A DNA stretch of 64,000 bases from Naegleria gruberi (lineage: Eukaryota): NCBI GenBank assembly GCA_000004985.1, contig GG738855.1; one strand, given 5' to 3'. The notes under the pieces were generated by a model that ran no database searches, was not told where the DNA came from, and saw nothing but the letters and a program-made list of their open reading frames with translations. A program made the translations under genes and the position numbers. Position 1 is the first letter of the stretch; each line of letters begins with the position of its first letter. Below, in pieces: positions 4,598-63,987 of this stretch.

Positions 4598-6607
4598 ATG
4601 TCGGTTAGGACATCAATAACCGAGCCCAATTTCCATGACAATTTCATTACAACTCTAAATGATTCATCATCATCTTCAAGTCGTCCAGCCACAACAACAA
4701 GTATAGATTTATTCATGAGAGGAGAACCAATTCTTGTAGATTTGCTTTTACATCATGATGAGGATATTTGTCTGCAGGATATTGACGATCATCAGTCGGC
4801 GATGGATAAAGAAATGTCGACAATTACGAATAATCTTCCTCATCAACAACAACATATTATCGGTCAACAACACGAATTATCATCATCACCTGTTGTTGCT
4901 ATTACTTGTACTCCTCCACTACTAACTAATTTAGACATGACATTCAATTATGACAAAACTGATAATCAGCAGCAGCAACAAGAAGTAAATACAACTAATA
5001 GTAATAATATTGTATTTAATAATGATATAGTAATTGTGGAAGATTCTAATAGCAATAATAATAATAATAATAATAATCGAATGAACATGGTGAATATTGT
5101 TGATGGTAGTTCTATTATATTAAATAATACACCTCAACTCTTTATTGAAACAAAACAAGATAATTCTAAAGGGTTAGTTCTACCTTTAAATTTATCTAAT
5201 GATAATTCTCCAGTCAATTCAGAGATTTCATCGGCTGTGAGTGTGACCTCCTATGGGTCAAGTCTTCCATCGACTCCAAATAATTCCCATCAATCTTCAA
5301 GCTTTTTCAATTCATCAACAACAATGGTAACCAATGATGAAACTGATTGGGAAATTATTGTAAAGAATAGAAATGCTCAACAAATAGCACGTATGGCCTC
5401 TGCTACTGGTTTAGTATTTCATAATAATCTATCCTCCTCACCATCAACTACTTCATCTTTATCGTCTTCAAATCTATCAAATCAACATCATCACTGTGTT
5501 ACCACTCCAAAATTGGATACATCTTCTTTAAATGAAACATCATTCAGAAAGAACTTTATCACTCGACATAGTTCTGATCAGAGAATTGCAATCTCTAGTA
5601 ATAATAGTAGTGGTAGTACATGTAATGAAGAGTCCACATTTGGTACTGGGTCAAGCAAGCAGAGAAGCAAGACAAGTTTTTTGTGGGGAAGATCTTTAGA
5701 GAGGAAGAATTCTGCAAACAGCAATACTTGTATGCCTCCAATAGAGGATTCTAAGAATGCTCAACTCGATATTTCGGCCTCTTCAATAGAGAGTAGTGCC
5801 ACCAATGTTGCATCAGATGAGAGCTTTTTAGAGTTTTTACAGAGTGTAGATTGTCGAATGAATGTTATTTCGATAGAGTCAATTGATTCTGCCTCTACAC
5901 AAGACACATCATCCAAAGAGACTTTGAAAAAGTCCAAATTTTGGGATAGACTCAAGATTATCAAAAAGGCAATTAAGAAACAGCTTATGGAAGAAGAAAA
6001 ACCTAACAGCACCCAACAAACACTTCACACTCAACAACCATCTAAACACTCGAGAACCAATAGTATTACAAGTAATCCACATACACTTGATTTGGATTGT
6101 AAAAGTACATCATCTTCCTCTCTGACAAGCGTTAGTGATGAAGACAAGTATACGGTTGTTATTACTAAACCAGCAATAGTCTCTAATAGTGCAATTAGAT
6201 CTGCTGAGGATGAAATGAGACATTGTCTTAATGATCCAATTTGTTTACAATTATTTGATGAATTTTGTTGTCAGGAATGCTCTCAAGAGAATTTACTTCT
6301 TTGGAAGGAGCTCAATAAGGTCAAGACTAATTTCAAGAAACTTTCAGATAAGAGAAGAAGCAAAACCCTTCGAACCATTCACTCGAAATTCTTCTCTGAG
6401 AAGAATGAAAATTTCGATGTAAATGTTAGTGGTCGAACTAAAGTTCAAATAGAGGAACAAGCAAATAGCAAGAGAGTTAGTTTAGCATCTGGCGCACACG
6501 TTTTAAATAGCTTACAACGAGATTGTATCAACAATTTATGTGACAGCTTTTCGAGGTTTATTCTCACTGAGGATTACAAACTATGGAAACAAAACTTTGA
6601 TAGGTAA
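4598..6607 (+). CDS. Asn/Gln/Ser-rich protein with C-terminal RGS (regulator of G-protein signalling) domain
   Basis: 669-aa ORF. Motif LQLFDEFCCQECSQENLLLWKELNKVK fits the RGS core (F..F...E.S.ENL.FW). Long low-complexity N-terminus including an (AAT)n-encoded poly-Asn tract. Confidence 0.6.
   Translation: MSVRTSITEPNFHDNFITTLNDSSSSSSRPATTTSIDLFMRGEPILVDLLLHHDEDICLQDIDDHQSAMDKEMSTITNNLPHQQQHIIGQQHELSSSPVVAITCTPPLLTNLDMTFNYDKTDNQQQQQEVNTTNSNNIVFNNDIVIVEDSNSNNNNNNNNRMNMVNIVDGSSIILNNTPQLFIETKQDNSKGLVLPLNLSNDNSPVNSEISSAVSVTSYGSSLPSTPNNSHQSSSFFNSSTTMVTNDETDWEIIVKNRNAQQIARMASATGLVFHNNLSSSPSTTSSLSSSNLSNQHHHCVTTPKLDTSSLNETSFRKNFITRHSSDQRIAISSNNSSGSTCNEESTFGTGSSKQRSKTSFLWGRSLERKNSANSNTCMPPIEDSKNAQLDISASSIESSATNVASDESFLEFLQSVDCRMNVISIESIDSASTQDTSSKETLKKSKFWDRLKIIKKAIKKQLMEEEKPNSTQQTLHTQQPSKHSRTNSITSNPHTLDLDCKSTSSSSLTSVSDEDKYTVVITKPAIVSNSAIRSAEDEMRHCLNDPICLQLFDEFCCQECSQENLLLWKELNKVKTNFKKLSDKRRSKTLRTIHSKFFSEKNENFDVNVSGRTKVQIEEQANSKRVSLASGAHVLNSLQRDCINNLCDSFSRFILTEDYKLWKQNFDR
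5054..5077. repeat. (AAT)n microsatellite encoding poly-Asn inside a CDS
   Basis: Sequence aataataataataataataataat. Typical coding microsatellite of dictyostelid genomes. A similar tract lies at about 23390-23410. Confidence 0.8.
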
Positions 6608-6785
6608 ATTTTGGAAAATCAATACCCCAAAGTTAAATTTGTGTAAATATTTGAAGAGAGTGAATTCAAAAGGATTCAATTATTTCAATTTTCTTTAATT
6701 AAACTTGTTTTTAATTACAATTAATTTGATTATTATTATGGCGCCATGATGAACTCGAATTAAAATAAAAAATAAATATTAAAAA

Positions 6786-7538
6786 ATGTCTCAAGATCAA
6801 ACGGAAAAGCTTTTGAGAAAAAGATCAACATCAAGTGGTTTGAAGATTATTGGTAATTATCAAATTTTAAATGGCGGAATATGTTTATTATGATGATCAG
6901 TTCCTGAACCTGTTTTTAAAAAGTTGGATTTACAAACTGTTTCTACTCTGATCGGAAAGGAAAATGCTTTGTTTATTGATGTAAGGTATGATTATTATTG
7001 TTGTATTTTATAAATCAACATCATCATGATTGTACGATCGGATCATCATAGAGATGAAGACTATGAAGGAGGTCATATTAAGGGATCTATTCATCAACCA
7101 TTTTCTTCTTTCGATGAGTTGTGTCCATCTCTTGTTACCCTTGTTGAAGAGAAGGCATCCACTTTGGACACTCTTGTTTTCTATTGTATGTTTTCGGAAC
7201 AAAGATCTCCTCAGTGTGCTGCTGCTTTTGCTGAAAAGATTTCTGGAAACAAGGCTTTGGAACATTTAAAGATGTAAGTTATTGGATAATTTAATGTATG
7301 ATTAATTGTGATGATCGGATTAATGAATTGTAATATGCTATTATTATAATAATAATATTATAGAATTATTCTTTCTGGAGGATTTAATTCATTCTTGAAA
7401 AAGTATACACCACCAAATGATCTTATTGAGGAATATAATGCTGAATGTTATAAGGAAGTTGATGGACAATTATTGCACATGATCGATGCTCAGTATTTGG
7501 ATGTCATTACCGATAAGAATGTCAGTGTTAGCGAATAA
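6786..7538 (+). CDS. Cdc25/Acr2-like rhodanese-domain phosphatase (arsenate reductase / dual-specificity phosphatase family), 4 exons
   Basis: Exons inferred by eye: 6786..6852, 6901..6985, 7052..7273, 7364..7538. Donors are gtaatt, gtatga, gtaagt and acceptors are (t)ag. The spliced product reads MSQDQTEKLLRKRSTSSGLKIIVPEPVFKKLDLQTVSTLIGKENALFIDVRDEDYEGGHIKGSIHQPF...YCMFSEQRSPQ...ILSGGFNSF. It has the CX5R active-site loop CMFSEQR and the IDVR rhodanese signature. Confidence 0.55.
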
Positions 7539-7596
7539 AATAGCTAGCTCAGAAATTAAGATCTAGTAGTAAAACTGCAGATGAGGAACCACAATT

Positions 7597-10500
7597 TTAT
7601 TTCTTTTTTCGTTTGAAAAATTGGAAAGCAGATGAGGAACCACTATCTGAAGAGGAGCCTCCCTTCTCAAGGGATTGAGTAAGCATTTCAATAATGTCGT
7701 CACAAGGAACATGAGACGATTTGGCAATATCTAATGGTGTTTTACCTTGCTTATTTTTCAAGTGTAAAACCTTGTACATTAATGTTTGTTTTGGTTCTAC
7801 TCTTGGACTCGATAGATTTGTAGTTGAAGCACTTCTACTATTTTCTCTTGGTGTTGAAAGGAGACCTCCTGAAGTTGGAGTGGTATTTTGATTTGGTGAT
7901 AAATTTGCAACAGAGCTAGCTGCAACACTAGGTCTCTTGTTCATTTGAACACCAACAATATTATACAGTGATAGGAGATATCTTACAGCAAATGTATTGC
8001 TGTCGCTACAAGCATATGCAAGACAAGTTTGATGTTTGTCATTATCTGGTTCCATCAACAACTCATTGAGGACTTCAATATTTTCTTGAGACTCTTCGTC
8101 ATATTTTTGTTTTTCTGCAAGCTTTTGTTCTGGTGTGAGCTCTACATTCTTTGGTGCTAATCTGAGGGCCGATCCTAATGTACTCTTTCTAGGTTGAAGT
8201 AGCTCATTAATAATCAATTGCATGGATTTCAAATCACCCTTAATTACACAATCGTGTAGAATATTTCTTCCATGATAATTTTGACTCTTCAAAACTTTAA
8301 TGAATTGCTCTCTAGAAATGTATGGCAAAATTGCCTCCAAAATTGGTTGTTTTCGTTTCAGTACACTGTTGTTGTTACTTTCTGTTGATGAATTGTTGGT
8401 TTGAGAATTATTCTTGCTTAGTTCAGGATTGAGTTTCTTAGCTCTCTCTGAAGGATCATTGTAAAACAAGTCACGAGCCTCTTGTTCACTCAAGCCATAG
8501 AATTTTTTAGCTGAGAGAATGAGTGTCTTGGTTGACCATCCCATTTGAGGAACAAGCAACTCCATGGCTTTGAACATAATATTCTTCTTCAATTGGAATT
8601 CATCTTGAAGGAAGTGACTAATGTGATTAGGGAATCTAGAACCATTTGTATTGGTTTTGGAATTGGCTGGAGAGGGTGATGAATTATTTTGAATTGGGCT
8701 TGATTTAATCTTGATAGAATCTTCAAGAAGGACACCTTGTTGATTACTGGTATAACCTCCTCCTGCCATTCCATTAATACCTGAAAGAGCAGCCAATGAG
8801 TCTGATCTCATTTTGAGTGCAGCAGGAAGCTTGAGAGGTTCTCTCTTCTTTCTTCTATCGTTTGTTAAGAGTTTGTTCTTATTTTCATAATTGACTTCAC
8901 CAGATTCACCAACAAACATTTCATCCAATTCTTGGAAAATATCAGCAGAAACGTCAGTATCACAACTAGAAACACTAGTTGTTGGTGATGGAGCTCTATT
9001 CGAAATTGGAGTATTATCACTATGTTCTGATGATTGTTTAACTGAGTCAACTCTAGGTGAGTCATATTTAGTTGATTCATTGATGGTATCCTCATCTTTT
9101 TCCTTGGACATTTCATGTTCGAGAAGGAATTCTTCAATCAAAAGTAAATCTTCATCTGGTACTTGAGATGATTCTCTCTTTGATTCTACCGATTTTTCAT
9201 CAGCAGCATTAATTACATCCTTTGTTGAGTTTTGTGAGGAGAGAGTTCTTGGTGAAGGTTGAGTTGGCACTTGTTGTACCTCAACTTCTCTCCCAACAAG
9301 ATTGAAGAGTGGAACACATCCTTTTTGATCCTTCTTTAGTAAAATAGCTCCCTTCTGAATGAGATAAACTATTCTATCCAATGGTAATTCGAAACAAGCA
9401 CGGTGCAACATGGTTTCACCTCCACGAATTGTAGTATCCAATGAAGCACCAAACAAAATGAGCATGTCACACACTGCAAAGCAACCTCTCTTCAATGCTA
9501 CATAAAATACATTGTATCCAAATTCATCATCCACTTGTTGAATAATCTTTTCCAATGCATTGTTATTATATGGAGATGAAGCTCCAGTAGCAGGAGATGA
9601 ACTAGTTGGTGAAGGAACATCTGCCTTATTCTTATTACCGAAAAAGCTCTTTCTTCCAGAGCCTCCTCCACTATTAGAATGTGGATTGGCCACAAGTTCT
9701 GATCCATTTCTAGCTCTTGAAACTCCTGTCTTGATTGTTGAACTCTTAATTTTCGTACACAAGAATGCACAGCTCTCAGTAGCATTAAAGAAGGAAGTAT
9801 AAAAGAGTGGAGTCATTTTCATGGCATCCGAAACAAATAAGAAATCAGGTCCACATTCATCAAATAACCATTCCATAATAACACTCTGATTGTACTTGGA
9901 TGCCAAGTGCATTAGTGTACACTTTTGAATAGAATTAAACTTGGTATTGAGTAAATATTTAGTCCACAATAATTTCAAAGATGGTTCCGTTGCAAATTTA
10001 AATTGTTTCCAAGTGTCGAGAACGTCCTCTTTCATGGAGGTAAATTCCTTCCTTGACATGACTTCAACTTCACGTGTAGGTGATCCAGTACTACTTGATG
10101 GACTGCCAAGAGATTGGAGGTCTGCGAATCTAGTACTGTTCCTGTTTAGTTTTATACTATTTCTATTAACACTGAGACTGTTACTGACAGTAAGAGTTGA
10201 TGATTCGTTACCACTCAATTTCATAGATCCAGTTGTAAAGAAGAAGAATCTAAAGTAGAGTAATTGTTTCAATCGGTAGAGAGAATGAATAGAAATGTGA
10301 TAGAGACCACTCAAGTCCATTAAAGCACTTCCCTTTGAAGATAATACCGAAGTTGTGGTATCTAAAATTATTGATTTGGCACTAGTTTCCGCAACTGTAT
10401 CTTTTTCAATCAATGGCTCAACTTGGCTGGTTTCGTTTGCTTTCGAATGCTTTCTGTTAACTTTCTTCTTCTTGGCAGATAAATGTTGTGATGATGGAAC

Positions 10501-50421: not shown

Positions 50422-51608
50422 TTACTTCTTTCTGAAAGGTGGAGAGATTCTATTGGAGGGTCTCTTACTTCTTCTGCCCCTTACTGGTGTGATGATAACT
50501 TCCTCTGATTCGAGTGTGGAAGAAATAGAAGCAACCTTAATGACATCATCCCCATCGGAAGAAGTAGTCTTTTTGCTTGATATTGGGACGGATTCTGATG
50601 GTAAAACATCATTGTTTGCCGAGTCTGTTTCTTGTGACATTTCATCAGAAGGAGACAATTCTTCTTCAGCTGGTAATGAATTGCTTGTATTTTGGAATGA
50701 TTCTGATGGTAAAACATCATTTGTTTCTTGAGAGATTTCTTCAAAAACCTCATCATCAAAATTGGCAGCATCTTTATCACATCCTAAAACACGAGAGGAT
50801 AGATATTTAGGATCAATAGGATACTTGCATTGAGTGAATGGAGTTTCTGTAGATAGAAATCCACCAGTTGCTTGCCATTCAACAACAATTTTGTTACCTT
50901 GTGTTAAAGAAAGTACTTTAGCCTTTCTCTTTCTGATCTCTCCGTCATTAATCTTAATTGCCTTTGCATATGGAGGCTTGTCAACCATTACCAGTTGATT
51001 GATTTTGAAGGTAGATTCTACATTTGCTTTGTGTTTGTTGACTCTTTCGGCTTGCTTTTTAAATCTTTTTTGGACCGTTTCAACAATTAAAGCAGTGTCA
51101 ATAATGATTGAGCACTTCTCACGTTCATCACAAAAATCAGATATTCTACTTGGTGCCACCTTATCAAACAAGTCTTGAGGAGTGAACTTTGTAACACTAT
51201 GTACCGTGTTATTATGTTTTAAGACAACTTCCTTCAAATGGTCAACCCAAGTTCCAGCGTCGTTTTCATCAACAATGGATCGAATTTTGACCTCTATGCC
51301 ATCTTTGGTAGTTCTGTTGCACCTTTCAGCCAATCCGTTTTCTGAGGGACTGTAAGGGTTGGTAGCTGAATCCTTACAGTCCCTCAGAAAATCCTTACAA
51401 TAATTTGCTCAACTGGCTGAATTGGTGAAACAAAGGGAGTTTGTACTTGTTGACTAATGCTGTTTGGAGTTTCACTATTTGGAGTACTGTTGGAAATTAC
51501 AATTCTGTGAGGTTGATTTTGAGTAGCAATATAATTTTGGAATCTACTGAGGAAACTTGGGTCACTGGCTAGTTGATTAATAAGAGAAACAATCAGTCCT
51601 TGGTCCAT
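50422..51608 (-). mobile_element. Ty3/gypsy (Skipper-like) retrotransposon fragment: integrase C-terminal region plus chromodomain-like segment plus repetitive acidic tail
   Basis: ORF complement(50422..51333) reads LAERCNRTTKDGIEVKIRSIVDENDAGTWVDHLKEVVLKHNNTVHSVTKFTPQDLF, the post-DDE integrase region. A chromo-like segment is KIVVEWQATGG...TETPFTQCKYP. The tail has a ~120-bp tandem duplication (NDVLPSES x2) at about 50560-50760. An upstream fragment ORF complement(51384..51608) is present. No LTRs identified. Confidence 0.5.
51342..51386. repeat. Perfect 16-bp inverted repeat (ctgagggactgtaagg / ccttacagtccctcag) with 13-14-nt spacer forming a hairpin
   Basis: Direct reading. Located between the two retroelement ORF fragments. 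A further partial copy (atccttaca) follows at 51388-51397. Confidence 0.7.
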
Positions 51609-51943
51609 ATTGAATATTTTTTAAGATTTTAACATATTTTACAACAACAGTTAAATTTTTCAATTTATAGTGGTCAAGGATTATAACTAAGGATTCTTGA
51701 TTAATTGCAACCGTTCCAATAAAAGTACTTTTTATTTGTTATAGGCGAAAAAAATCTGCATAATGATTCATGCAATCCTTAGTTATAAATGAAACCTTGT
51801 ATCTATTCCTTATTGATGTGGTTACAACTCGTAATGGTTCCCTTGGTTGGACTGATAAACAAGGAATGCAGAAAAAGAAAACATACACCAAACATTAACT
51901 GTCAGGGAAGTTGTCATAGACACATCAAAACAAATCAAAAAAA

Positions 51944-52897
51944 ATGGTCAATTCTCATAGTTATCCATTTCGGTGCGAAGATGGAGAAGGTAAATTCATA
52001 GAATTACATTTATCATTCTCCGAACCCGAACATCTAATTACTCTGTCTTGTACCTACAATTATCACAAGTATTTGTTTACTGAAGAAACATCATCTGTAA
52101 TTCATTTTAAATACTACAAAACATGTTTGATGAACAATGCCATTGATTGCAAGGTTTCTGAGGACAACATTACCTTGGTTGTGAAGGAGTGTTCTGATAT
52201 TGGGTCCAGTGTCAAATTTATTCTTAACAAACAAGAAAGGGATGCTGATGAAAAATTGAATACCATGTTAGAAGTCATGATGAAAGATATCGCACAATTG
52301 AAGGGAATGCTTTGGTTTACTGATAGAGATTTGAATAAGTTCTCCGAGAAATACATTACCAATTGGAATAGTGTATTTATTAGAGTCAATGGTTCACCTA
52401 TTCTAGGCAAAATATTCACAAATACTTACTCAAAGAAAGAATTTTATGTTAATACCACTGGTTGTAAAATCAAAAAGGATTCAATCAATTCTCCATTATT
52501 TAAATCTTATCGTGAATCAGATCTGGAACCTATTATCATTTACTTTAAACAAAAAGTGGATTTCTCAAGAATTGAAATTTCTGTTAGTGTTCATCAATCA
52601 AACAATCAAGACTTGGTCAAGGTTTATGTTTTTGGAGTAATGAAACCTCAGGGAGTGATTAGAAAATTTGACATTGAATTAATTAATGAAAATCTAAGCT
52701 CTCATTACCAAGAGCCAAAGGAAGATTGGTTTATTATGCCTAAATTGGAGAAGATTTCAGAACAAGAGTGTAAGCTAAATGGATTAGTTTCAATTCATTT
52801 CGATTCGAATAACGCATATGATGGAATTGGAATTGCAGTAAGAAACCAACGAAACGATATGTTCAACTACACCATTCCTCTTTTAAGAATATATTAA
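51944..52897 (+). CDS. Paralog (probably 5'-truncated) of the secreted protein at 34607..35746
   Basis: Shares conserved blocks with the 34607 ORF but lacks a signal peptide at its N-terminus. It lies immediately downstream of the retroelement fragment. Confidence 0.4.
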   Translation: MVNSHSYPFRCEDGEGKFIELHLSFSEPEHLITLSCTYNYHKYLFTEETSSVIHFKYYKTCLMNNAIDCKVSEDNITLVVKECSDIGSSVKFILNKQERDADEKLNTMLEVMMKDIAQLKGMLWFTDRDLNKFSEKYITNWNSVFIRVNGSPILGKIFTNTYSKKEFYVNTTGCKIKKDSINSPLFKSYRESDLEPIIIYFKQKVDFSRIEISVSVHQSNNQDLVKVYVFGVMKPQGVIRKFDIELINENLSSHYQEPKEDWFIMPKLEKISEQECKLNGLVSIHFDSNNAYDGIGIAVRNQRNDMFNYTIPLLRIY

Positions 52898-53357
52898 CAA
52901 TTTTAAAATTATTGATTGTCATATATAAAAGTTTGGTACCTATAACCTCGGATACCTCTTACTCCAATCTCTTATTGATTTAAGATTTTGAAATTGTTTA
53001 TTATTGAATTTTTATAAAGAGTATTGACACGAATCAGAAGCTTCTTATTGTGACAACACTTGATAGAAGAATGGGAAAGTGGCTGCATTAATTCAACATA
53101 TTGAAAGTGAACAAGGTTCTCAAGATTTGGAACTCTTCTTCATGAAGAGGAGGTTATTGGGTGGTGACTAGAGAGAAACATTTCCTTGTAGCTTTTCTAC
53201 TAGTAAATGATTAATTGACCAAGATGTTGACCTGTAATATGGAAACACAATAAAATTCAATAATACTGATAAATACAGTAGTGAATATGAATGGTAATCA
53301 TAAATCACTGAAAAAATCATGATTGGATCCTTTTTGAGACTTTTGGAAGTCAACTTG

Positions 53358-53407
53358 NNNNNNNNNNNNNNNNNNNNNNNNNNNNNNNNNNNNNNNNNNN
53401 NNNNNNN
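53358..53407. other. Scaffold gap (50 N); identical-length gaps at 61557-61606 and 63221-63270
   Basis: Runs of n in the sequence. Confidence 0.95.
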
Positions 53408-56400
53408 TAGTGTCATCACAGACTAAACCTTTAGATAATAATCAAAGTGGTTCTGGAAATGACCNCAGTTTCATCACAAACTAAACCCTTGGATAACAAC
53501 CAAGGTGGTTCTGAAAAGAACCTAGATGCTATTCTTCACGCCATCACTTCATTGGGTGAGAGAATTAAACATCTTGAAGCAGTTCCACCCATCCTTCAAG
53601 AAGCTGATCAACTTGATGACAACTCTGATGAGGATTCTGCTGAAGATTCCACTGGTAAACATTGGGGTATGTCAACAATCAAGGAGATTAGAAGACACTA
53701 CGAAGTTGGCGACAGATTAGCCGATGGAGATGTCTTAAGTTTTGTTTCAGCCAAAACTCTTCGTCGTTATCAAACCAATGATGCTCTTTTGAATAGAGTT
53801 CAATCATTAATGGCTAGATTTGAATCCGTTATTCATAATCATCGTACTCATCCCCGTTTGCAAGAAATCCAATCAAAGGGCTTGCAAAAGATGATGGAAA
53901 TGTTGCATTTGAAATCTAGACTACTCCATTTCGCTTTAAGTCACCCAATGAACGTTGCTAACATCATTGAAATCACAGAATTAGTTTATCTTCTCTGTGA
54001 GGTCGAGAAAATCTTCTTGGAAGAAGGTTTGTTTGATAGTAATTTTGAGGTTGCCACCAATTTCATTCAACCATTCGTACAGAGCAATACGTTCGCTGAC
54101 ATAACCGAAAAAGCACGTAGTAAGAAGAGAGAGAAAGCTGTTATCAAGACTGCTTTTGTTGGAAAGATTCAAAAACCCAACAAAATGAAAGAGAAGTTGA
54201 ACAAACCCTACACTTCTCAACACAACAGCTACTCTAAGTCTTACAAGAGTAACTCCAATTTTCAAAAATCAGGAGACTCAAAACCAAAGTACAACAACAA
54301 CAACGGTGGAGGATCCTTCAGCAAGGACCTCTGACTTGGTGGGTTGTCGTCTTGGCAAGTTTGTAACTCAGTGGGAGAGTTACAACTTCAACCCATTCAT
54401 AGTGGATTGGATTCGGAATGGAGTTCCAATCTACTCAAATCCCACCCTTTGGAAAGAATTCAAGCAAAGGAAGAATTTCTCTCCAAAGGAGACCTCTTGG
54501 ATGGATCAAGAAATCCAAGAGATGTTGAGTTCCAATGTCATCGAACTTGGAAACAAATCTACGGTACTCAATCCAATAAACATTGTCCCCAAGAAGGGCT
54601 CAGATCAGTTTCGTTTTATTCTGGATCTCAGGAAAGTAAACTTGGGGATCAAGGATACTTCGTTCAAGATGGACAACATTCAAAAATGTTTGAAGTTTGT
54701 TCAGAAAGGAATGTGGGCAACAAAGATAGACCTGAAGAAAGGCTATTTTCATGTTCCCATCAGAGAGAGTCATCGACACCTTCTGGGATTCAAGTACAAG
54801 AGCCTTGTATACCAATTCAAATGCCTTCCATTTGGTCTAAGTCAAGCTCCCAGAAACTTCACCAAGATAATGAAGGAACTAATGACCAAGTGGAGAAAGC
54901 AGGGCATCTTGGTATTCATTTACATCGACGATATATTGATTCTAAGCAACCACAAGGAAACTACCCAACAACACACAGAGATAATCTTGAAAGACCTAGA
55001 AACATTAGGATGGATTATACAGAAGGAGAAAAGTGTGTTGACACCTTGTCAATGCATAGAATTTCTGGGTCTGGAATTGGATTTAATATCAGGTTTGGTA
55101 AAAATTCCACTCAACAAACAAGCCACTGCGATAAAACTGATCCAAGACTTCTTGTCAGCGAACCAACTGAACAGATATGTAGCTTGCAAGAAAGTGGCTC
55201 AGTTTCTTGGGAAGATGGAATTTCTAACCCTATCAAACCATTATTTTGCACCATTTCTGGCTCGTCTTCGAAAGGATATGGTGAAAGTAGTAAACGACAA
55301 ATCCTGGCACGCATCGATGAGAATATTCAGAGGTGCAACCAAAGACCTCAAGATATTGAAAACTCTGATTCAGGAAAACAGTGGAGTTCCATTCGAACTG
55401 AACTCAATGAACCCGATTCGAGTGAATTCAGATGCTTGCCCAACAGGTTATGGAATCGCAGAATCAACCATTACAATTGGAAGATTCAATTCCTCAGAGC
55501 ACATCAATGTCAAAGAGTTAAAAACACTCCTCATTTTCTTCACACAAGCAGATCAATTAAACCTTTATGGTCCTGGTCAAGCATTCGAGATAAGAGGCGA
55601 CAATGTAACAGCAATATCTTATATAAGGAGAGGTTACGGAGTCATCGAAGAACTCTCACAAATAGCCAGAGATCTCTACAAAATTCTAATGAGAAGAAAA
55701 TGGTGGATTTCCAAAGTGATTTATATTCCCTCAAAGGAAAACATTTTGGCGGACAGACTGAGTCGTCTAACAGAATGGAAATCCTCTCAAGAACTATTGA
55801 ATCTAGTTCAGACAGAATTTGGAAAACACCACGTGGACAGATTCTCAACATTGGAATCAACCACAACAATTCAATTCAATTCATGGATAGAGAACGACAC
55901 ATTTCTGAACCCATGGGAACAAAATCTGATGAGCTATTGTGCTCCTCCTCTGGGTCTGATATCTCAAGCTCTAGTTCACTGCATCAAGTCAGGAGCCAAA
56001 GCGACATTTGTGGTTCCAGATTGGCCCTCTTCGATATGGTTTCCAGTCTTGCTAAAGATATCAGAAAGAATGATAACTGTTTCGAGAAAGATGCTTATAA
56101 TAACGCCCTTATCAGAGTTGCAAGACAAGTTCGAGAATTCGAATTTCCTGGTTGTTCAAGTGCATGGCAAGTTATTCAAACAATGAGAGAAATCAGTATT
56201 CTCTCTTCAATAGGTGAAAAAACCTTCAGAACCTACAACAGGATTTATGGTGGTTTTCTTTGGTTTATCAATGTGTTCGATCTTACCATTGATAATCCTT
56301 TAGCTATTGAATATTACATCTCTTACCTTCTGGTTAATGTTCAAGGTTACAAAGCAAATACTGTGCAAGCAGCTATTCAATTCTTTGCTAACCTTGATGG

Positions 56401-57091
56401 CAGAACAATTAATATTTCCGTCTCTTACCCTAAAGTTAAAAAAGGTGTCCTTAAGCTTTATTCACTTTCGGATAAAGTTTCTCTTCAAAGAGATCCGATA
56501 ACAATCAAACATTTGACTGATTATTTGAAGTGCAAAGACAAAGTGGATAATTTCACTTTCCGTCTTACATCTGCTATTCTAGTAATTGGTTTTAGACTAT
56601 TTGCAAGACCTGGTGAGGTTGCGCGACTAAAATGGTCATATATCAAGATGCTTAAAAAAGGAAGAATCAAGATTGATCTCAGTGGTCATAAAACTGACTT
56701 CTTCCTTATTGAAAAACCAATTACTATCGAAAGGAATACTAAAGATCCTAATCTTTGCCCAATTTCAATACTAAAATCATACATGGATTTGGTTAGGAAT
56801 TTCAAAGATGCTGAGTCCCCATTATTTTCCTTCGAAAACGACAAATTCTTTGATTCAGATGGTATTTCAAAAATACTAAAGAATGCAGTGGGTATAGTAG
56901 ATCAAGGCGTAACAGTCTCAGGTCACAGCCTTAGAATAGGTGCTATCACAGAAGGACTCAGAAAGGGTATGTCTACAACTGATCTAATGGTCGGTGCAAG
57001 ACATAAAAAGGAAAAAAATTTATTTCCTTACCTTAGATCTGAAGGCCTAGCTGGCAAGAATTTCACTAACACTCTATTTTCTCTGGACTAA

Positions 57092-57139
57092 CCCATTGGT
57101 TTATCAACGAAATTCTTTATTGTTTTATTTGGAGAAATA
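57092..57139 (+). repeat. 48-bp direct repeat copy 1 (cccattggtttatcaacgaaattctttattgttttatttggagaaata), immediately after the recombinase ORF stop
   Basis: Identical copy at 57767..57814. The two copies are separated by ~627 bp. Confidence 0.8.
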
Positions 57140-57766
57140 TGGCTAGTTGCGAGGAACGATGCAACGTTAGTATTTCGACAAATTGTAAACAATAAAATTG
57201 AGTTGATAAATAATTTTTATGCTCAAAAAAATTAAGAAACATGGTAAACACACCAAGCAAAATCATTGCTGACCCACCCACCCATTCCCTTAATTTCATC
57301 AAGAATTCCTTGAATTCTTTCAAATAGTCCTTCACTCCTTGAGTGTTTTTTCCTATTTGTCTTTTAGTTTGATCTTGGTAAGTGATCCTTCTAAGGATGC
57401 AGGATTAGTATTACCTTGTGATACAATAATTTTTATTTCTAACTAACATCATTTGAATAATTCGAAATATGCTCGTAAAGTTAGCCAGATTTATTTTTTC
57501 AAAAAATATTTCTGATAGAAATTACCAGGCATTTTTTTACAAGCAATTCACTAGTTAAAATAGAGAACTTTAATGGATTGGAGTTTTTACTGATTTTTTC
57601 CTGCAATGCAGGTTTTTTATAGGGGAGTTGTTCTATTTCAATCTCGATTTTGTAAACAACTTTATTAACTCGGGACAATGCTGAATAAAGTCAATGACCT
57701 AAAAGGCAGCATTTCCGAGCAACATACCTCATCCTTTGGATGAAGAATATGTTGAGTGAGCTTCTA

Positions 57767-57814
57767 CCCATTGGTTTATCAACGAAATTCTTTATTGTTT
57801 TATTTGGAGAAATA
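57767..57814 (+). repeat. 48-bp direct repeat copy 2
   Basis: Identical to 57092..57139. Confidence 0.8.
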
Positions 57815-57929
57815 ATAAAAATCTATATGAATTTTCTGAAACAAATGGAATGAAAAATAAATAAAAGGTGTAAGTTTATTAATGTCTCTTGTATCAATAA
57901 CGACCTGAGAGACCACACTTTTTCGGCAT

Positions 57930-58960
57930 TTAAGGACTCTGTGCAACATTTGAATGATTTGGGTTAAGATTGAGTGCCGTTGAGTGAGTGTGCCTAAAGT
58001 AGGCTGATTGGAATTTTGAGTTTTTGATAAAAGGTTGTCGGGAGGGACGGTTGTACCACATAGTGTTTTTGTAACAATTTTCTAAATAAATGGCGAATGC
58101 CTTGTAAATTTCTAGAGCTACAGCCTTAGGAAGTCTTTTGTTCTTTGACCATAAGAGCCTATCGCTGCGAGAGCAGCTTCCGTTAAAATCAATAATAAGG
58201 CAGTTCCTCACTTTGTCTGAAGGGAGACGAATCGGATCGAGGTTAAATTTGGAGGAAATATTGTCCCAAGTAGCATACAGTTCCTGTTTTTCATGGTTGC
58301 TTTTAGAGCACGATGAGAAAACGTGTGTCCAGTCTTCGGCAGTTTGACATGAATCACAGGTTGTATTGTTATCTAGAATAATAGCGTGGTGAAGGTTTAG
58401 GAAAAGGAGTCTTTGTTGATAGTAGGAGAGATGGAAATTTCTCCAAAAGGAAACAGTTGAAAGGTGCCAATTAAGATTTGAATCTAACTGGCCCAACTCT
58501 GAGATGGTTTTTTTGGATCTTTTGAGTTCAAGAATATCGTTTCGTAAGTTGGTGATGGGTTTGTGTGACGATCTGTCACAAAGAACCCATCCACTCTCTG
58601 TTGGATTGAAGTATGCATTGAGTTTGTTGATATTTAAGGCTGCATTTGTCCAGAGAGAGTCTGTAGATTTGCCTCGGAGAGCTTTTTGAATCGAGGCCCT
58701 TGCAATGTTGCGGGTGATTGTGGATGAGGAGTTCACAAATCTACAGACCGATGCTGTGCATTCAATGTCTAACACATCTACAGGAGACGTGAGACCGAGA
58801 CCACCATGTCGCTTATCACCATAGATGACAGCTTTGGAAAGTTTGAAATTACACCCTAATTTCTTCTTAATAGAACCACTAATATTTGATTCAAGTTTGG
58901 TTAACGTGGATAGGGGGACGGCATCAACACTTGATAAGTATCTAGGGATAGAGAGTACTT
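57930..58960 (-). mobile_element. 5'-truncated non-LTR (LINE/TRE-like) retrotransposon fragment: ORF2 C-terminal region with CCHC zinc-knuckle
   Basis: ORF complement(57930..58775) and the upstream open frame read ...KRHGGLGLTSPVDVLDIECTAS...CDSCQTAEDWTHVFSSC..., the typical thumb/C-terminal tail of L1-type ORF2. No clear poly-A at the 3' side. Confidence 0.45.
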
Positions 58961-58989
58961 GGTTTGGGTTTGGTTAGGATTCAGAGTTG

Positions 58990-61490
58990 ATTTATTTGGG
59001 TTATTTAAGAGATTACTTAGTGAAGATTCAAATCAATGATTATAATTCTTATCATCTATTAATGATGTAAATTTGATGTTTTCATTTCTTATATTGATAG
59101 ATATTTAAAGGTCAGGTCAGAACTAACTTTTGAATTATGGACTTTGAGAAGTCAAATGTTTGGGACGTGAATCTACTCATTAGATTGAATAGGTATTGCT
59201 AATAAAGGAACATTTCATTGATTTATTGATTATAACGGTCAAATTGAGTTGAATGGAAGTGAATCACATGTTGATTCATCGTGGATGGGTAGTTTCGCCA
59301 CGTAGTGGTGCAACTACCAACCTTTGTAGATTGAATCAGGTTGATTTGCATGCAATATGAATAAGTAACATTATCAAGAGTGATTATTCCCCAATTCAAC
59401 GATCAATATTCAATAATCGGTTTGATTTCAATCAATAGCATGATCATCAAGCTTTGAATTAATATTCCAGTAATCAACGGCAGTCTATTTTTAAATTTAA
59501 TCAAAGACCATATATAGTATCTTGACTTTTGTGATCTGGAAACTATCTAGATGTTCTATATTGAATAATCTATTTGAAAATGAGAAGAATTAACTTCTAT
59601 TGAGTTTTATTGGTATTGCAAGGTATTACGATTTATAATAATCTTCACAGAAATCACTCTCGAAATATAAACTGTACTACAATGTATGAGAAACATAATG
59701 GTGGTGGAATTAATCAATAAATCGTTGAAATGACTGAGATGAAATGTAAACTATGGTCTATTTGTTATGTAATGGTGACTAGACAGTGTCAATTTCATCA
59801 AATTATTTCAAACTGGTAAGATTCAATAAAAAACGACTCTATACACCAAACATGCAATACGGAATGAGTTTCAATATTTAATATCGTGAACTGACTCTGT
59901 TGGATACCATCTCTATAAATATAACAATATGAAAAGTGTCAACATTCAATTTCACATGCGTTACTATGTAGAGTCATCATTATATCATCTAAATAGGTTG
60001 TATTTCATGTTTCAGTCACATTGACAGTCTTGATATTGAGATGTGTATACTAAGGTTGATGAAATGGTACCTTCACTGATTACTGACATGAATATAACAA
60101 TTGAATTTATAATTCTTGTATAATTAATTCATTATTCAACGATTTTGATATGATGGTAAAATTTAATTTTGAAATTAAGGTTCTTCCTAATTGATTACCT
60201 TAGATGTTCCTTAGTTGAGTTGAAGATGTTGAGCCATGAATATGAAACTTTCTCAGATTGTTCTCCTCATCAAGAGGAGTGTATTCATATTTGATACTTG
60301 TATGATATTTTGTAAAATGAATGAGATGGAGTATATTTTATATGTTGAAATGTGACAATTTGACAGATTGTTATTATTATCATACTGAATTCAACTCTAA
60401 TAGACTTAAATTGATACCATATGTATAACAGTGTGATTAAATGTATCTGGTAAAGTTACATGATGGTTGGATGTACTTTCATTGAGATAGAGTGTACACT
60501 TGGATAAAATCAATATTGATATTGAACATTAACTGACTTACTAATTGAAAGTAATACGAATTGGTTCCAAACTATATACAATGTATTTAGTTGATGTATA
60601 CTATATGTGGTATCAATTCTAGATTGATTGTATGTATAATGAGCGAGTTGGAGCATAAGCTTTGATTTCATGTCAAAGTTCTATAGTATAGTTGACATTT
60701 CGACATCTACTGAACCAATATTTATGAAATTGATACCATATGTTAATTAGAGTGTCTATATATCATGATATCAATTTCAGTGAAAATGGAGTTGTTTCTG
60801 TACCTTCAGATTTCCATCCATTCTTGAAATATCCCCCATGTACTATCTACTGGATGCATTTATTGAAATGAAAACATATAATTTGATGAAAGTCCACTTT
60901 ATTTGAGATGTAGAACTCGATATTATCATTTATTTTGAGATTGGTAACATTCCCTATAGTATCCTTAATTGTCTTAATTGACTAAAAAAGGTCAAGGAGA
61001 GATTTCAAAACATAAAATAAATGATATTTTCGAGATTTACTATCGATTTCCAATCGATTGATATGTATTTTGTAGATTGAGGATGTAGTTCTCTATTTGA
61101 AGATTTCCTCCTGATCTTCTAAGTCACCCTTGATAAATCACTCTTTACCTGAAAGATGGAATGTTCACCAAAACGTCTAAAAACTGAATTATATACATTA
61201 TTTGAGATGTGGAACATGATGGTAATGTTTCATAAAGTGATCATTTTCCAGATTTTCATCCATGTACACAGTTGACTAGTTGGTATGATAGAGTTGAAAT
61301 CATGAACATGAAAGTGAAAATAAACTTTATATTCTATCTCCACTCATCGAATGGAGCATTTTCATGCATATATTGTTGATTGAAGTGATGTATTTGACAG
61401 ACTTGGTCTGACTTGTCTTTTCTTAAAGTCATCTATAATATATCAACATTTACCTTTCCATGGTACCATTTCTGATTTATATGATATGAA
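58990..61490. repeat. 2.5-kb AT-rich non-coding region with degenerate interspersed short repeats (for example attgataccatatgt / atgtggtatcaat)
   Basis: No ORF of 60 aa or more in any frame. Recurrent motifs occur in both orientations at about 60410, 60606 and 60724. Confidence 0.4.
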
Positions 61491-61553: not shown

Positions 61554-62492
61554 TTANNNNNNNNNNNNNNNNNNNNNNNNNNNNNNNNNNNNNNNNNNNN
61601 NNNNNNATGGTAAAAGATTGGAGGAAGAACTACTCTTTGTATAAGTTGGATCATCTTCCTTATTGTTTGGCAATGAGTAACCAAAGTTATTCTCGAGCAT
61701 ATTTTGGTGTGATTCTATAATATTCAAAAGTGTACTCTCAATATTAATGAGTTTGGTAATTTGGTCACAGATTTGAATTCTTTGTGCTCTCAAATTCACC
61801 TTATTTGAACTCGTTTGGCTATTGGACATGGAGAAGGCAGGAGTTGTTTCCTCACCATCTTCTTCAAAATCCATAAGGAAGAGAGAACCAGGTTGCTCTT
61901 CATCCATCTCGGTTAAAATTTCCCACAAGTTTGACAACTCCTTGATTCCATTTTCCATTGCGTTTTTCAATGTACCCAACTTGTTAATAGAATCTAAACT
62001 AACTCTTTTAAGCTCAGTGTATTGTTCGAAACTCTCAGCACCATATAAAGAAGAACCAAAGCTTGTCTCACTGTCTTGGTGTTTGAGGACTGCAGCCTTT
62101 GCCAAAGTAGTTTTCATTTTGGAAGGAGAATCTTTCTTGTATGGGGATCGACATCTAGAACCATGATTATTTGTTGGTCTTTTGGTTCTTCCAGTTGTTG
62201 GTGAAACTGGCATCATGTCATTGTTAGTAGAGGAGAAATTAGTATTATTGGTGGAGGGAATTGTTGTATTATTGGAGGTACTTGTGTTAGTAGTTGGTTC
62301 AACAATAATTGTGGAGGTTGTAGTGGTTGGAGTCTTGCTGTCATTCTCGGATCCAGCAAGTAAAACTTTAAGAGTGGAGACTTGTTTACGGAAGTGAATT
62401 TGTTGGTGGTGAAATTCTCTGATGAGTTCCATCTTGTTGAAAGGAACAGTTGTAGTAAATTGCATCATGGAAAGGTTCTTAAATATGTACAA
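61554..62492 (-). CDS. Hypothetical Ser/Thr/Asn-rich protein; ORF spans a 50-N scaffold gap (61557-61606)
   Basis: 312-aa ORF with low-complexity N-terminal half. The C-terminus is interrupted by the gap. Confidence 0.35.
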   Translation of the reverse strand: MYIFKNLSMMQFTTTVPFNKMELIREFHHQQIHFRKQVSTLKVLLAGSENDSKTPTTTTSTIIVEPTTNTSTSNNTTIPSTNNTNFSSTNNDMMPVSPTTGRTKRPTNNHGSRCRSPYKKDSPSKMKTTLAKAAVLKHQDSETSFGSSLYGAESFEQYTELKRVSLDSINKLGTLKNAMENGIKELSNLWEILTEMDEEQPGSLFLMDFEEDGEETTPAFSMSNSQTSSNKVNLRAQRIQICDQITKLINIESTLLNIIESHQNMLENNFGYSLPNNKEDDPTYTKSSSSSNLLPXXXXXXXXXXXXXXXXX

Positions 62493-63201: not shown

Positions 63202-63987
63202 TCATATTGTCAATGATCTCNNNNNNNNNNNNNNNNNNNNNNNNNNNNNNNNNNNNNNNNNNNNNNNNNNATTGGCATTATTGGATGATTCCTTTGATTC
63301 TTCTTGTTGTGGAGCATTTTCTTGAGTTTGTTGTTGTTGGGCTGCTCCTGGGAAGAGATTATTCAACAATGATGACAAATCGAATGGATTGGCTCCTTGT
63401 TGTTGTTGACCATTATTAGGATTATTGAACAAGGATCCAACAACATTTTCAATGAGTGGAGCAAATTGTTCAAAACCAGCTCCCATACCACCTCTTCTTC
63501 TACAACCACCACGTGACCATGGACAACCAGATTGAGGACGAGCATCACCAAATGGACAATGTCCTTGACCTCTTCTACCACCATGCAAATTGAAATTCTT
63601 GAAAATTTCACTAAATGGATCCTTTGGACTATCATTGTTATCAGTTTCACTCTTTGGAACAATATTTTGGCAGACAATCTTGATAACAGTTTCAGAAGCG
63701 AGAATTGAGTTCAAAATCTTCCAATCTTCTTCATCTGACAAGGATACCCAATCATTTTGATCGTCAAGATAGAAGAGTTTGAAACTGGTATCTGTGACAA
63801 TGGATTTGGTTTTCAATTTTTGAACGAATTCCTCAAAGGTAATGCCACTTTGATCCAAAATGAGTCTGTGGACACTCTTTGGTTTTTCCTCCTTCAAGGT
63901 TGTTTCAGAGAGTGGTTGAATTGAGGAGTTTTCATAAAGGAAAACTTTGAAATGTTTACTAGCAGTTACTTGTTTTGCGCTGAACAT
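63202..63987 (-). CDS. PB1-domain protein with Gly/Cys/Pro-rich zinc-binding-like segment (sequestosome/p62-like), C-terminally truncated by gap 63221-63270
   Basis: N-terminus KVFLYENSSIQPLSE...SFKLFYLDDQNDWVSLSDEEDWKILNSI resembles a PB1 fold. HCPFGDARPQSGCPWSRGGCRRRGG is a Cys/Gly-rich segment. Gln-rich tail. Family assignment is tentative. Confidence 0.35.
   Translation of the reverse strand: MFSAKQVTASKHFKVFLYENSSIQPLSETTLKEEKPKSVHRLILDQSGITFEEFVQKLKTKSIVTDTSFKLFYLDDQNDWVSLSDEEDWKILNSILASETVIKIVCQNIVPKSETDNNDSPKDPFSEIFKNFNLHGGRRGQGHCPFGDARPQSGCPWSRGGCRRRGGMGAGFEQFAPLIENVVGSLFNNPNNGQQQQGANPFDLSSLLNNLFPGAAQQQQTQENAPQQEESKESSNNANXXXXXXXXXXXXXXXXXRSLTI

What the first reader, a model, noticed from the sequence alone, without database searches (positions are those of the whole stretch)
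53447..57091. DIRS-like retroelement in which a second frame stays open across the entire 1.8-kb RT/RNase H ORF before encoding the tyrosine recombinase
The RT ORF (54306-56186) and the 915-aa ORF (54344-57091) overlap for ~1.84 kb in different frames with no stop in either. Only the last ~300 codons of the long ORF look like a tyrosine recombinase (R..E..LKW...HSLRIGAIT). The first ~600 codons are low-complexity, Ser-rich overlap sequence. Overlapping RT and YR ORFs are a known DIRS feature. The extent of the dual-open region still suggests selection on both frames, or a fused YR ORF. The element is nearly intact despite the gap at 53358-53407, which makes it a candidate active copy.
Basis: partly seen in the sequence, partly recalled or inferred. 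Interest (0 to 1): 0.55.

Follow-up and report, generated by a model that had tools for sequence, protein, structure and literature searches.

The report
DIRS retrotransposon with stop-free bridge frame
This is a tyrosine-recombinase (DIRS-type) retrotransposon in Naegleria gruberi with the "long ORF overlap" already described for such elements: a second frame across the reverse-transcriptase gene is kept free of stop codons but not conserved as protein, probably so ribosomes can reach the recombinase gene downstream.

Summary
The RT/RNase H/methyltransferase ORF (54306-56186) and the 915-codon ORF (54344-57091) overlap for 1.84 kb. Synonymous shuffling predicts about 38 stops in the second frame; there are none after the gag stop. 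Host genes in the window have 8-14 stops per 100 codons in that frame. Five diverged relatives (RT 52-59% identical) keep the frame open, so it is selected.

The selection acts only against stops. The "bridge" peptide is no more conserved than the closed third frame, evolves with apparent dN/dS 1.65, and has no homologues. Only its last ~60 codons show extra constraint. The final 302 codons alone fold as a complete Cre-like recombinase (pLDDT 95, TM 0.75-0.80).

This "long ORF overlap" is already described for about half of DIRS1-like elements (Piednoel 2011), without a mechanism. New here: gag, bridge and recombinase share one frame, interrupted by a single UGA-C stop that is conserved in six relatives and one distant lineage. 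That suggests readthrough to a Gag-bridge-recombinase fusion, with RT reached by a +1 shift. This is an inference.

The copy's 5' end lies in the assembly gap, so "nearly intact" cannot be verified. Interest is moderate to low.

The parts
53358..53407 (.). Assembly gap (50 N) that hides the element's 5' end: the expected A1 repeat, the 5' UTR and the gag start codon
   Evidence: N run. The window gag aligns to L001 gag only from L001 residue ~33 onward. No match to the A2 repeat occurs upstream of the gap.
53408..53517 (+). Two 51-nt near-duplicate segments (53409-53459 and 53467-53517, 84% identical) on either side of a single N at 53465. Probably a join between paralogous copies.
   Evidence: blastn self-hit; sequence read.
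53435..54334 (+). gag-like ORF1, 5'-truncated by the gap. Its C-terminus is rich in N/G/K and has 'KFQ'-type motifs.
   Evidence: No Pfam hit. 78% identical to L001 gag, dN/dS 0.13.
54332..54335 (+). gag stop TGA followed by C. It is the only stop in a 3.65-kb frame. In the +1 frame the bases T-GAC read Asp, which leads into the RT ORF.
   Evidence: TGA-C is found in all six family members and in the distant element L013. Host ORFs in the window use TAA in 16 of 20 cases and TGA-C in none.
54201..56186 (+). RT/RNase H/methyltransferase ORF, in the +1 frame relative to gag. It has no ATG near its 5' end. Conservation begins at the G(G/C)RL..F..W motif at 54342.
54585..55079 (+). Reverse transcriptase domain (YIDD box at 54921-54932)
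   Evidence: Pfam RVT_1 E=4.2e-26, aa 94-258. Ty3 RT 4ol8 E=1.3e-20. Motif coordinates.
55425..55766 (+). RNase H-like region: SDAC..G (55425-55454), KELK (55509-55529), RGDN (55593-55613) and ADRLSR (55746-55766). These match the Ty3/gypsy-type D-E-D...ADxLSR pattern.
   Evidence: Motifs located. The assignment rests on reading against established Ty3/gypsy RNase H motifs. There is no Pfam hit.
55773..56093 (+). Methyltransferase-like (Dam) region, including PP..L and VVPDWPSSIWFP
   Evidence: Pfam PF05869 E=6.7e-5, 23.1 bits, below the 28.1 cut-off. Relatives P0009-P0011 and others carry PF05869.
54335..56182 (+). 'Bridge': 616 stop-free codons in the gag/YR frame (-1 relative to RT) that overlie the whole RT/RH/MT gene. 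It is not conserved as protein, except possibly its last ~60 codons (about 56000-56182).
56183..56186 (+). ATGA: a YR-frame Met codon that overlaps the RT stop TGA
   Evidence: The same overlap occurs in L002, L004, L005 and L010 but not in L001 or L003.
56183..57091 (+). Tyrosine recombinase: a complete two-domain Cre-like fold. Catalytic residues: R in ARPGE (56603-56617), K in SGHKTD (56681-56698), HSLR (56921-56944), H in ARHKK (56996-57010), Y in FPYLRS (57023-57040).
57091..57139 (+). B1: a 49-nt repeat that starts at the last base of the YR stop. It contains the family-conserved CCCATTnGTTTAT and TTTATTGTT motifs and has an ICR-like role.
57100..57212 (+). Long imperfect hairpin. The left arm lies in B1 (57100-57132) and the right arm in the start of A2 (57180-57212).
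   Evidence: DNA fold -26 kcal/mol, z = -4.5. Equivalent inverted repeats sit just after the YR stop in L002 and L003.
57140..57765 (+). A2: sequence between the two B copies. It is presumed to be a copy of the missing 5' repeat A1. It contains ATGCTCAAAAAAATT followed by ATGGT, as at the L003 gag start.
57766..57814 (+). B2: a 49-nt repeat, 100% identical to B1. Presumed 3' end of the element.

Best explanation
The locus is a tyrosine-recombinase retrotransposon of the DIRS order in Naegleria gruberi NEG-M. Its gene order is gag, RT/RNase H/methyltransferase, recombinase, followed by B1-A2-B2 direct repeats. The 915-codon 'ORF' has two parts. The first is a 616-codon bridge, which is simply the -1-frame reading of the RT gene. 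The second is a self-sufficient 302-codon Cre-like recombinase. Shown: purifying selection keeps the bridge free of stop codons. It does so by forbidding T at RT codon position 3 before codons that start AA, AG or GA. Selection does not preserve the bridge's amino-acid sequence. This is the 'long ORF overlap' already described for DIRS1-like elements. Inferred mechanism: eukaryotic ribosomes cannot start internally on the single full-length mRNA, so the recombinase is reached by ribosomes that translate through the bridge. In this family, gag, bridge and recombinase share one frame and are separated by one weak UGA-C stop. Termination there would give Gag. A +1 shift at or just before the UGA (reading GAC) would give Gag-RT/RH/MT. 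Readthrough would give a rare Gag-bridge-recombinase fusion, which would also tether the recombinase to Gag. My confidence in each step: DIRS-order element with the known long overlap, about 0.95; the bridge is a stop-free spacer rather than a functional protein, about 0.8; ribosomes traverse it to make the recombinase, about 0.6; entry is by UGA readthrough, about 0.4. The overall figure of 0.55 refers to the 'translated stop-free bridge that delivers ribosomes to the recombinase' explanation as a whole.
For: Identity: RVT_1 and a weak Dam hit; Ty3 RT is the best solved relative. The recombinase has all catalytic residues, PF00589 in 5 of 5 members, and a model with pLDDT 95.2 that matches Cre at TM 0.75-0.80 over about 305-318 columns. 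Host is N. gruberi. Stop-free by selection: 0-2 stops against 29-41 expected in all six family members; host-gene control. The layout recurs in L001, L002, L004 and L005 and in distant elements L008, L009, L011, L012 and L013. Not protein-conserved: for window versus L001, RT is 91% identical (dN/dS 0.08) and the bridge is 70% identical (apparent dN/dS 1.65), with changes at bridge position 1, which is RT position 3. Across the family the bridge is 0.31 identical, the closed frame 0.33 and RT 0.55. Against a stop-free synonymous-resampling null the excess is negligible over the first 400 codons (z<2) and appears only near the 3' end. The bridge has no Pfam hit and no homologues except P0001. 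Readthrough/recoding: a single in-frame TGA. TGA-C occurs in 6 of 6 members and again in L013, which groups with L011 rather than the Naegleria clade. Host ORFs use TAA in 16 of 20 cases and TGA-C in none. GAC makes up only 48% of Asp codons in these RT ORFs. The RT ORF has no ATG near its start. The long ORF abuts or overlaps the gag end in every element examined, whereas the RT frame does not in L008 and L011.
Against: There are no expression data of any kind. The in-frame gag/bridge junction is not general: the long ORF is +1 to gag in L008, L009 and L012 and -1 in L011. Readthrough therefore cannot be the universal entry route. The shared frame itself has a prior of about 1/2. The TGAC conservation is confounded with an Asp codon in the RT frame and could equally reflect a +1 shift site alone. 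A YR-frame ATG overlaps the RT stop (ATGA) in 4 of 6 members, which offers a route that needs no bridge. No supported RNA structure lies downstream of the UGA and there is no Rfam match. A fusion of about 140 kDa that carries 616 unselected residues, with no element-encoded protease to release the recombinase, seems costly.
Confidence: 0.55

Rival explanations
1. The recombinase is made by termination-reinitiation at the overlapping RT-stop/YR-start ATGA (56183-56186), as in UAAUG/AUGA coupling of some viral RNAs and of the SART1 retrotransposon (the comparison is from my own knowledge). The bridge would then be irrelevant to recombinase expression.
For: ATGA overlap in the window, L002, L004, L005 and L010. 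The 302 aa that start at this Met fold as a complete Cre-like recombinase.
Against: It gives no reason for 616 stop-free codons that are conserved across deep lineages. L001, with all ORFs intact, has ATA/TAA at this position, and L003 has no ATG. The bridge's last ~60 codons show extra conservation, which suggests translation begins upstream of this Met.
Confidence: 0.15
2. Ribosomes enter the bridge from the RT frame by -1 slippage, programmed or diffuse, anywhere along the RT gene. This would make RT-fragment-bridge-recombinase chimeras. The long open frame would maximise the target for such slips.
For: The recombinase frame is -1 relative to RT in every element examined, whatever the gag frame. 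The short-overlap relative L007 has a 117-nt RT/YR overlap typical of -1 frameshifting. The N. fowleri pseudogene shows that a frameshift from RT into the bridge yields one long ORF.
Against: I saw no canonical slippery heptamer when reading the last 150 nt of the window RT ORF (my reading, not a systematic scan). A constant RT/YR frame relation may simply be inherited. This route does not explain why the long ORF always reaches back to the gag end, nor the conserved weak gag stop.
Confidence: 0.15
3. The overlap is true dual coding: the bridge encodes a functional, possibly disordered Ser/Arg-rich protein domain, and both frames are under amino-acid selection.
For: The synonymous rate of RT in the overlap is lower than in gag or YR (dS 0.62 against 1.09 and 0.85). 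There is a small overall excess of bridge identity over the null (0.308 against 0.272) and a clear excess in the last ~60 codons (0.393 against 0.279).
Against: Over the first ~400 codons the bridge is no more conserved than the null or the closed frame. Apparent dN/dS is 1.65. T depletion at RT position 3 is confined to stop-creating contexts. There is no Pfam hit and no homologue outside the family.
Confidence: 0.08
4. The openness of the second frame is chance, a compositional effect, or an assembly artefact of this copy.
For: None found.
Against: Shuffle tests, the host-gene control and independent assemblies from other samples with the same feature.
Confidence: 0.01

Closest known systems
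DIRS1-like retrotransposons with 'long ORF overlap' (Dictyostelium DIRS-1 and about half of the 28 elements annotated by Piednoel et al. 2011, PMC3266345)
   Same: The gene content is the same: gag, RT/RH/MT and YR. The YR ORF extends back over the pol ORF, and the catalytic domain lies in the non-overlapping 3' end. RT is related to Ty3/gypsy. There is no protease or DDE integrase.
   Different: No inverted terminal repeats were found. The 3' end instead carries direct repeats B1-A2-B2. In this family the long ORF is in frame with gag behind a single UGA-C stop; the papers I read do not mention such a junction. In N. gruberi, DIRS-like sequences were previously judged too corrupted to classify.
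[quoted passage not shown]
   Same: PAT-like elements are described as similar in structure to DIRS1-like apart from their termini. The 49-nt B1/B2 pair flanking A2, and the 246-nt repeat of the 5' region after the YR gene in L003, fit a split-direct-repeat layout.
   Different: A1 cannot be seen in this copy because of the gap. Phylogenetic placement against PAT reference elements was not possible with these tools.
Gag-Pol recoding in retroviruses and LTR elements: MLV stop readthrough, Ty1/Ty3 +1 frameshift, and antizyme +1 shift at UCC-UGA-U (comparison from my own knowledge)
   Same: A single mRNA is used, with downstream enzymes made as rare Gag fusions through recoding at the end of gag. 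RT is in the +1 frame. The proposed shift onto GAC at a UGA parallels antizyme's shift onto GAU.
   Different: Two alternative downstream products in two frames are proposed from one site. One of them requires about 1.85 kb of otherwise meaningless, stop-free translation. No stimulatory RNA structure was found. All of this is untested.

Membership tests
DIRS order (tyrosine-recombinase retrotransposons) | Reverse transcriptase of the Ty3/gypsy-related type | tested here: met
   Pfam RVT_1 E=4.2e-26. The best solved match is Ty3 RT/RNase H 4ol8, E=1.3e-20. YIDD box at 54921-54932.
DIRS order (tyrosine-recombinase retrotransposons) | Tyrosine recombinase in place of a DDE integrase | tested here: met
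   Catalytic R, K, HxxR, H and Y are present. PF00589 matches 5 of 5 family members, best E=4.7e-10; the window copy alone scores 0.021. AlphaFold pLDDT is 95.2, and Cre is the top hit at E=1.6e-10 with TM 0.75-0.80. No rve/integrase or protease Pfam hit occurs in any ORF.
DIRS order (tyrosine-recombinase retrotransposons) | RNase H domain downstream of RT | tested here: inconclusive
   No Pfam RNase H hit. The D...E...D...ADRLSR motifs at 55425-55766 fit the Ty3/gypsy RNase H pattern on reading.
DIRS1-like / PAT-like (as opposed to Ngaro, VIPER) | Dam-like methyltransferase domain after RNase H | tested here: inconclusive
   PF05869 E=6.7e-5, 23.1 bits, below the 28.1 cut-off. Several ~30%-identical relatives carry PF05869. 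The VVPxWPxxxWxP motif is conserved across nine elements.
DIRS1-like superfamily | Inverted terminal repeats plus an internal complementary region | tested here: not met
   No long inverted repeat occurs within 51300-59500. The repeats after the YR gene are direct. An ICR-like hairpin between B1 and the start of A2 does exist. Caveat: the 5' end lies in the gap.
PAT-like superfamily | Split direct repeats A1 ... B1-A2-B2 | tested here: inconclusive
   B1 and B2 are 49/49 identical and flank a 626-nt A2. A1 is unobservable in this copy. In L003 the 5' region (61-306) recurs 32 nt after the YR stop.
DIRS1-like 'long ORF overlap' architecture | The YR ORF extends across the pol ORF, with the catalytic domain in the non-overlapping 3' end | tested here: met
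   The definition comes from PMC3266345.
Programmed stop-codon readthrough / +1 frameshift sites | Measured recoding efficiency above background, usually with a defined context or RNA structure | not testable with these tools
   Only the context is available. UGA-C is conserved. There is no supported downstream structure and no Rfam family match.

The most novel reading that the evidence does not exclude
A single deliberately weak UGA-C stop at the end of gag works as a three-way recoding switch. Termination gives Gag. A +1 shift onto GAC gives Gag-RT/RH/MT. Readthrough gives Gag-bridge-recombinase. About 1.85 kb of RT-coding sequence would then be under selection solely to stay stop-free in a second frame. 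It would act as a translational conveyor with no protein-level function, carrying ribosomes to a distal gene and tethering the recombinase to Gag. This would explain the so far unexplained 'long ORF overlap' of DIRS elements.
Probability: 0.3. Interest if true: 0.65.

Novelty: new member of a known kind. Interest (0 to 1): 0.35.

Why it matters
The long pol/YR overlap of DIRS elements has been noted repeatedly; in the papers I could read it is described without a stated mechanism. This locus and its relatives give a clean quantitative picture. The second frame is under strong selection against stops only, and the complete recombinase lies downstream of it. That turns a descriptive oddity into a testable hypothesis about how a eukaryotic retroelement expresses a third gene from one mRNA. 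It would also be a rare example of long-range selection for "translatability without meaning". Practically, it warns annotators: gene callers pick the 900-aa ORF and suppress the real RT gene, as happened in L001. It also shows that Naegleria carries a DIRS/PAT-type family with all visible reading frames intact, in a genome where such sequences were earlier judged too corrupted to classify.

Tried and rejected
1. I looked for other copies in the window and found none.
2. I searched 51300-59500 for inverted terminal repeats and found none.
3. RNAalifold on 145-157 nt around and downstream of the gag UGA in six elements gave only a 10-bp stem about 60-90 nt downstream. Its covariation term is positive (+1.5) and several pairs are broken, so I do not accept it as a recoding stimulator.
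4. An Rfam scan of the element gave only sub-threshold chance hits, with no SECIS and no frameshift element. Selenocysteine decoding of the UGA therefore has no support.
5. A metagenome scan with the recombinase profile returned a single short locus, L010, a close relative of L002.
6. An AlphaFold run of the full 918-residue bridge+YR with a two-sequence alignment gave pLDDT 26 throughout, including the recombinase that folds well with a deep alignment. It says nothing about disorder of the bridge.
8. The idea that TGA is a sense codon in the host is rejected. Host ORFs and the element's own ORFs end at TAA, TAG and TGA, and no reassignment is needed.
9. The N. fowleri hit is a decayed copy of the same layout, with a frameshift from RT into the bridge register and extra stops. 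It was not used as evidence for UGA-C, because it has TGA-A.
Full report
OBSERVATION. The RT ORF runs 54306-56186 (frame 0, stop-free from 54201). The 915-codon ORF runs 54344-57091 (frame 2, stop-free from 54335). They overlap for 1,843 nt. Over the RT ORF the third forward frame has 61 stops and the reverse frames have 31-36. The gap at 53358-53407 and a lone N at 53465 are real.

[quoted passage not shown] Frame 2 is therefore open from 53435 to 57091 except for one TGA at 54332-54334.

NOT CHANCE. I permuted synonymous codons within the RT ORF. This gives 38.6 +/- 4.5 stops in the second frame (minimum 23 in 5,000 shuffles). The only stop observed is the gag stop.

The signature is very specific. 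RT codons that precede codons beginning AA, AG or GA end in T in 1 of 179 cases. Elsewhere T ends 143 of 446 codons.

Eleven host ORFs in the same window carry 8-14 stops per 100 codons in that frame. Their longest open run is 73 codons or fewer. The RT ORF has 0.2 stops per 100 codons and a 616-codon run.

WHERE IT IS FROM. Six flanking ORFs are exact matches to Naegleria gruberi NEG-M predicted proteins (NAEGRDRAFT_64846 to 64865) on a 613-kb scaffold.

WHAT THE PARTS ARE.
- **RT/RH/MT ORF.** It matches Pfam RVT_1 (E=4e-26) and, weakly, Dam methyltransferase PF05869 (E=7e-5, below the cut-off). Its best solved relative is Ty3 RT/RNase H. The YIDD box and RNase H-type D/E/D/ADRLSR motifs are present.
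- **Bridge.** The 616-codon overlap translation has no Pfam match. Its only database relative is P0001, the same ORF in a related element.
- **Recombinase.** The last 302 codons carry the full recombinase catalytic set: ARPGE, SGHKTD, HSLR, ARHKK and PYLRS. PF00589 matches all five aligned family members, best E=4.7e-10. With a 51-sequence alignment AlphaFold gives pLDDT 95.2. The model matches Cre recombinase along its whole length (TM 0.75-0.80, E down to 1.6e-10). The complete two-domain recombinase is therefore encoded downstream of the RT stop, and the bridge is not needed for its fold.
- **3' end.** A 49-nt sequence starts at the last base of the YR stop (57091-57139). It recurs perfectly at 57766-57814. 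Its left part pairs with the start of the intervening 626 nt in a long hairpin (z = -4.5). Equivalent inverted repeats follow the YR stop in L002 and L003. In L003 the 5' region of the element (61-306) recurs 32 nt after the YR stop. This looks like a split-direct-repeat (PAT-type) end rather than DIRS1-type inverted repeats. The 5' repeat of this copy cannot be seen.

RELATIVES. I recovered five related elements from public assemblies. L001 has RT 91% identical to the window. L002-L005 have RT 52-59% identical.

In L001, L002, L004 and L005 the gag frame runs on to the end of the recombinase (in L005, to the end of the contig) with exactly one stop, the gag stop. L003 has two extra stops. Each element has 0-2 stops in the bridge against 29-41 expected.

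More distant DIRS-type elements (RT 24-30% identical) also carry a 920-1,080-codon ORF that spans the whole RT gene. These are L008, L009, L011, L012 and L013. L007 has only a 117-nt overlap.

About 10 of the best 150 recombinase relatives, from a library of 1.84 billion representative proteins, are 870-1,052 aa long with the recombinase at the C-terminus.

A decayed copy in N. fowleri has the same layout, with a frameshift and extra stops.

WHAT KIND OF SELECTION.
- **Window versus L001.** RT is 91% identical with dN/dS 0.08. The bridge is 70% identical with apparent dN/dS 1.65. Its changes sit at bridge codon position 1, which is RT position 3.
- **Across the family.** Bridge-frame identity is 0.31. 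The closed third frame, used as a control, is 0.33. RT is 0.55.
- **Against a null.** I resampled synonymous RT codons while keeping the bridge stop-free. The first 400 bridge codons show no meaningful excess identity (z<2). The excess sits in the last third, and mainly in the last ~60 codons (0.393 against 0.279).

The frame is therefore selected to be translatable, not to encode a particular protein. The exception is a short stretch that probably belongs to the recombinase N-terminus.

WHAT IS KNOWN. Piednoel et al. [quoted passage not shown] They found long ORF overlaps in half of 28 annotated DIRS1-like elements. They list N. gruberi sequences as too corrupted to classify. Later papers repeat that the ORFs are "frequently extensively overlapped". 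I found no proposed mechanism and no mention of readthrough.

MECHANISM (INFERRED). The RT ORF is +1 to gag and has no ATG near its start. It presumably needs a +1 shift.

The gag stop is TGA followed by C in all six family members. It is TGA-C again in L013 (AAT TGA CTC). L013 also has the in-frame layout but groups with L011, not with the Naegleria clade.

Host ORFs in the window end in TAA in 16 of 20 cases and never in TGA-C. From general knowledge, UGA-C is regarded as among the weakest eukaryotic termination contexts. In the +1 frame the bases T-GAC give the only conserved residue (Asp) of an otherwise unconserved linker. GAC is only 48% of Asp codons in these RT ORFs.

I therefore propose that the weak UGA is a decision point. 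Termination gives Gag. A +1 shift gives Gag-RT/RH/MT. Readthrough gives Gag-bridge-recombinase.

In all ten elements the long ORF abuts or overlaps the gag end. The RT frame does not in L008 and L011. This fits entry into the long ORF from gag.

CAVEATS.
- The junction frame differs in other lineages: +1 in L008, L009 and L012, and -1 in L011.
- The TGAC conservation is confounded with RT-frame coding.
- An ATG overlaps the RT stop (ATGA) in four of six members and offers a reinitiation route.
- No stimulatory RNA structure is supported.
- There are no expression data.

STATE OF THIS COPY. All three reading frames visible in the assembly are intact, and B1 and B2 are identical. However, gag lacks at least 32 N-terminal residues and its start codon. 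The expected 5' repeat is absent. The 57 nt after the gap are an 84% near-duplicate of the next segment, apparently from another copy. "Candidate active copy" is unproven.

VERDICT. The added value is the demonstration that selection acts on stops only, the self-sufficient recombinase, and the conserved in-frame UGA-C junction that makes a recoding hypothesis testable.

Noticed in passing
window 53409-53459 and 53467-53517 (N at 53465): Two 51-nt segments, 84% identical, sit directly after the 50-N gap. They encode the same stretch of gag twice. This looks like a scaffold join between two paralogous DIRS copies, which implies at least one further copy in the genome.
   Followed up: partly
window 56183-56186; L002 3061-3064; L004 2813-2816; L005 2913-2916; L010 759-762: The RT stop TGA overlaps a recombinase-frame ATG (ATGA) in four of six family members and in L010. 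It does not in L001 (ATA/TAA) or L003. This may be a termination-reinitiation site.
   Followed up: partly
L001 (Logan SRR2090155 contig), genes called at 2-964 and 1001-3724: The gene caller reported the 907-aa bridge+YR ORF and suppressed the overlapping RT ORF. In long-overlap DIRS elements, the RT gene can therefore be missing from protein databases while a largely meaningless 600-aa N-terminus is deposited.
   Followed up: yes
L006 (N. fowleri VFQX01000017.1) 6602-10463: This is a decayed copy of the same architecture. The annotated protein FDP41_013244 is a chimera of the RT N-terminal half and the bridge register after a frameshift near 9000. The recombinase remnant follows a TAA. Its gag stop is TGA-A.
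   Followed up: partly
window 57930-58775 (-): A 281-aa ORF immediately 3' of the element has a Cys/His-rich motif (TTCDSCQ...WTHVFSSC) that reminded me of the C-terminus of non-LTR retrotransposon ORF2 proteins. It has no Pfam hit at E<=0.01.
   Followed up: partly
window 50422-51333 (-) and 51338-51391: A 303-aa ORF whose N-terminal part looked to me like the end of an integrase core (no Pfam hit). It is followed by a near-perfect 23-nt palindrome (51338-51360 / 51369-51391, 96% complementary). This may be another mobile-element fragment. Further 50-N gaps at 61557-61606 and 63221-63270 lie in this end of the window.
   Followed up: no
L003 61-306 and 4079-4324: A 246-nt direct repeat (97% identical) includes the gag start codon and recurs 32 nt after the recombinase stop. 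This fits either split direct repeats whose A unit includes the start of gag, or a head-to-tail tandem or circular form.
   Followed up: partly
L008, L009, L012, L011, L013 (gag/long-ORF junctions): The frame of the long ORF relative to gag varies between lineages: 0 with UGA-C, +1, or -1. The RT frame is always +1 to the long ORF. L011 and L013 are each other's closest relatives (41% RT identity) yet differ in junction type.
   Followed up: partly
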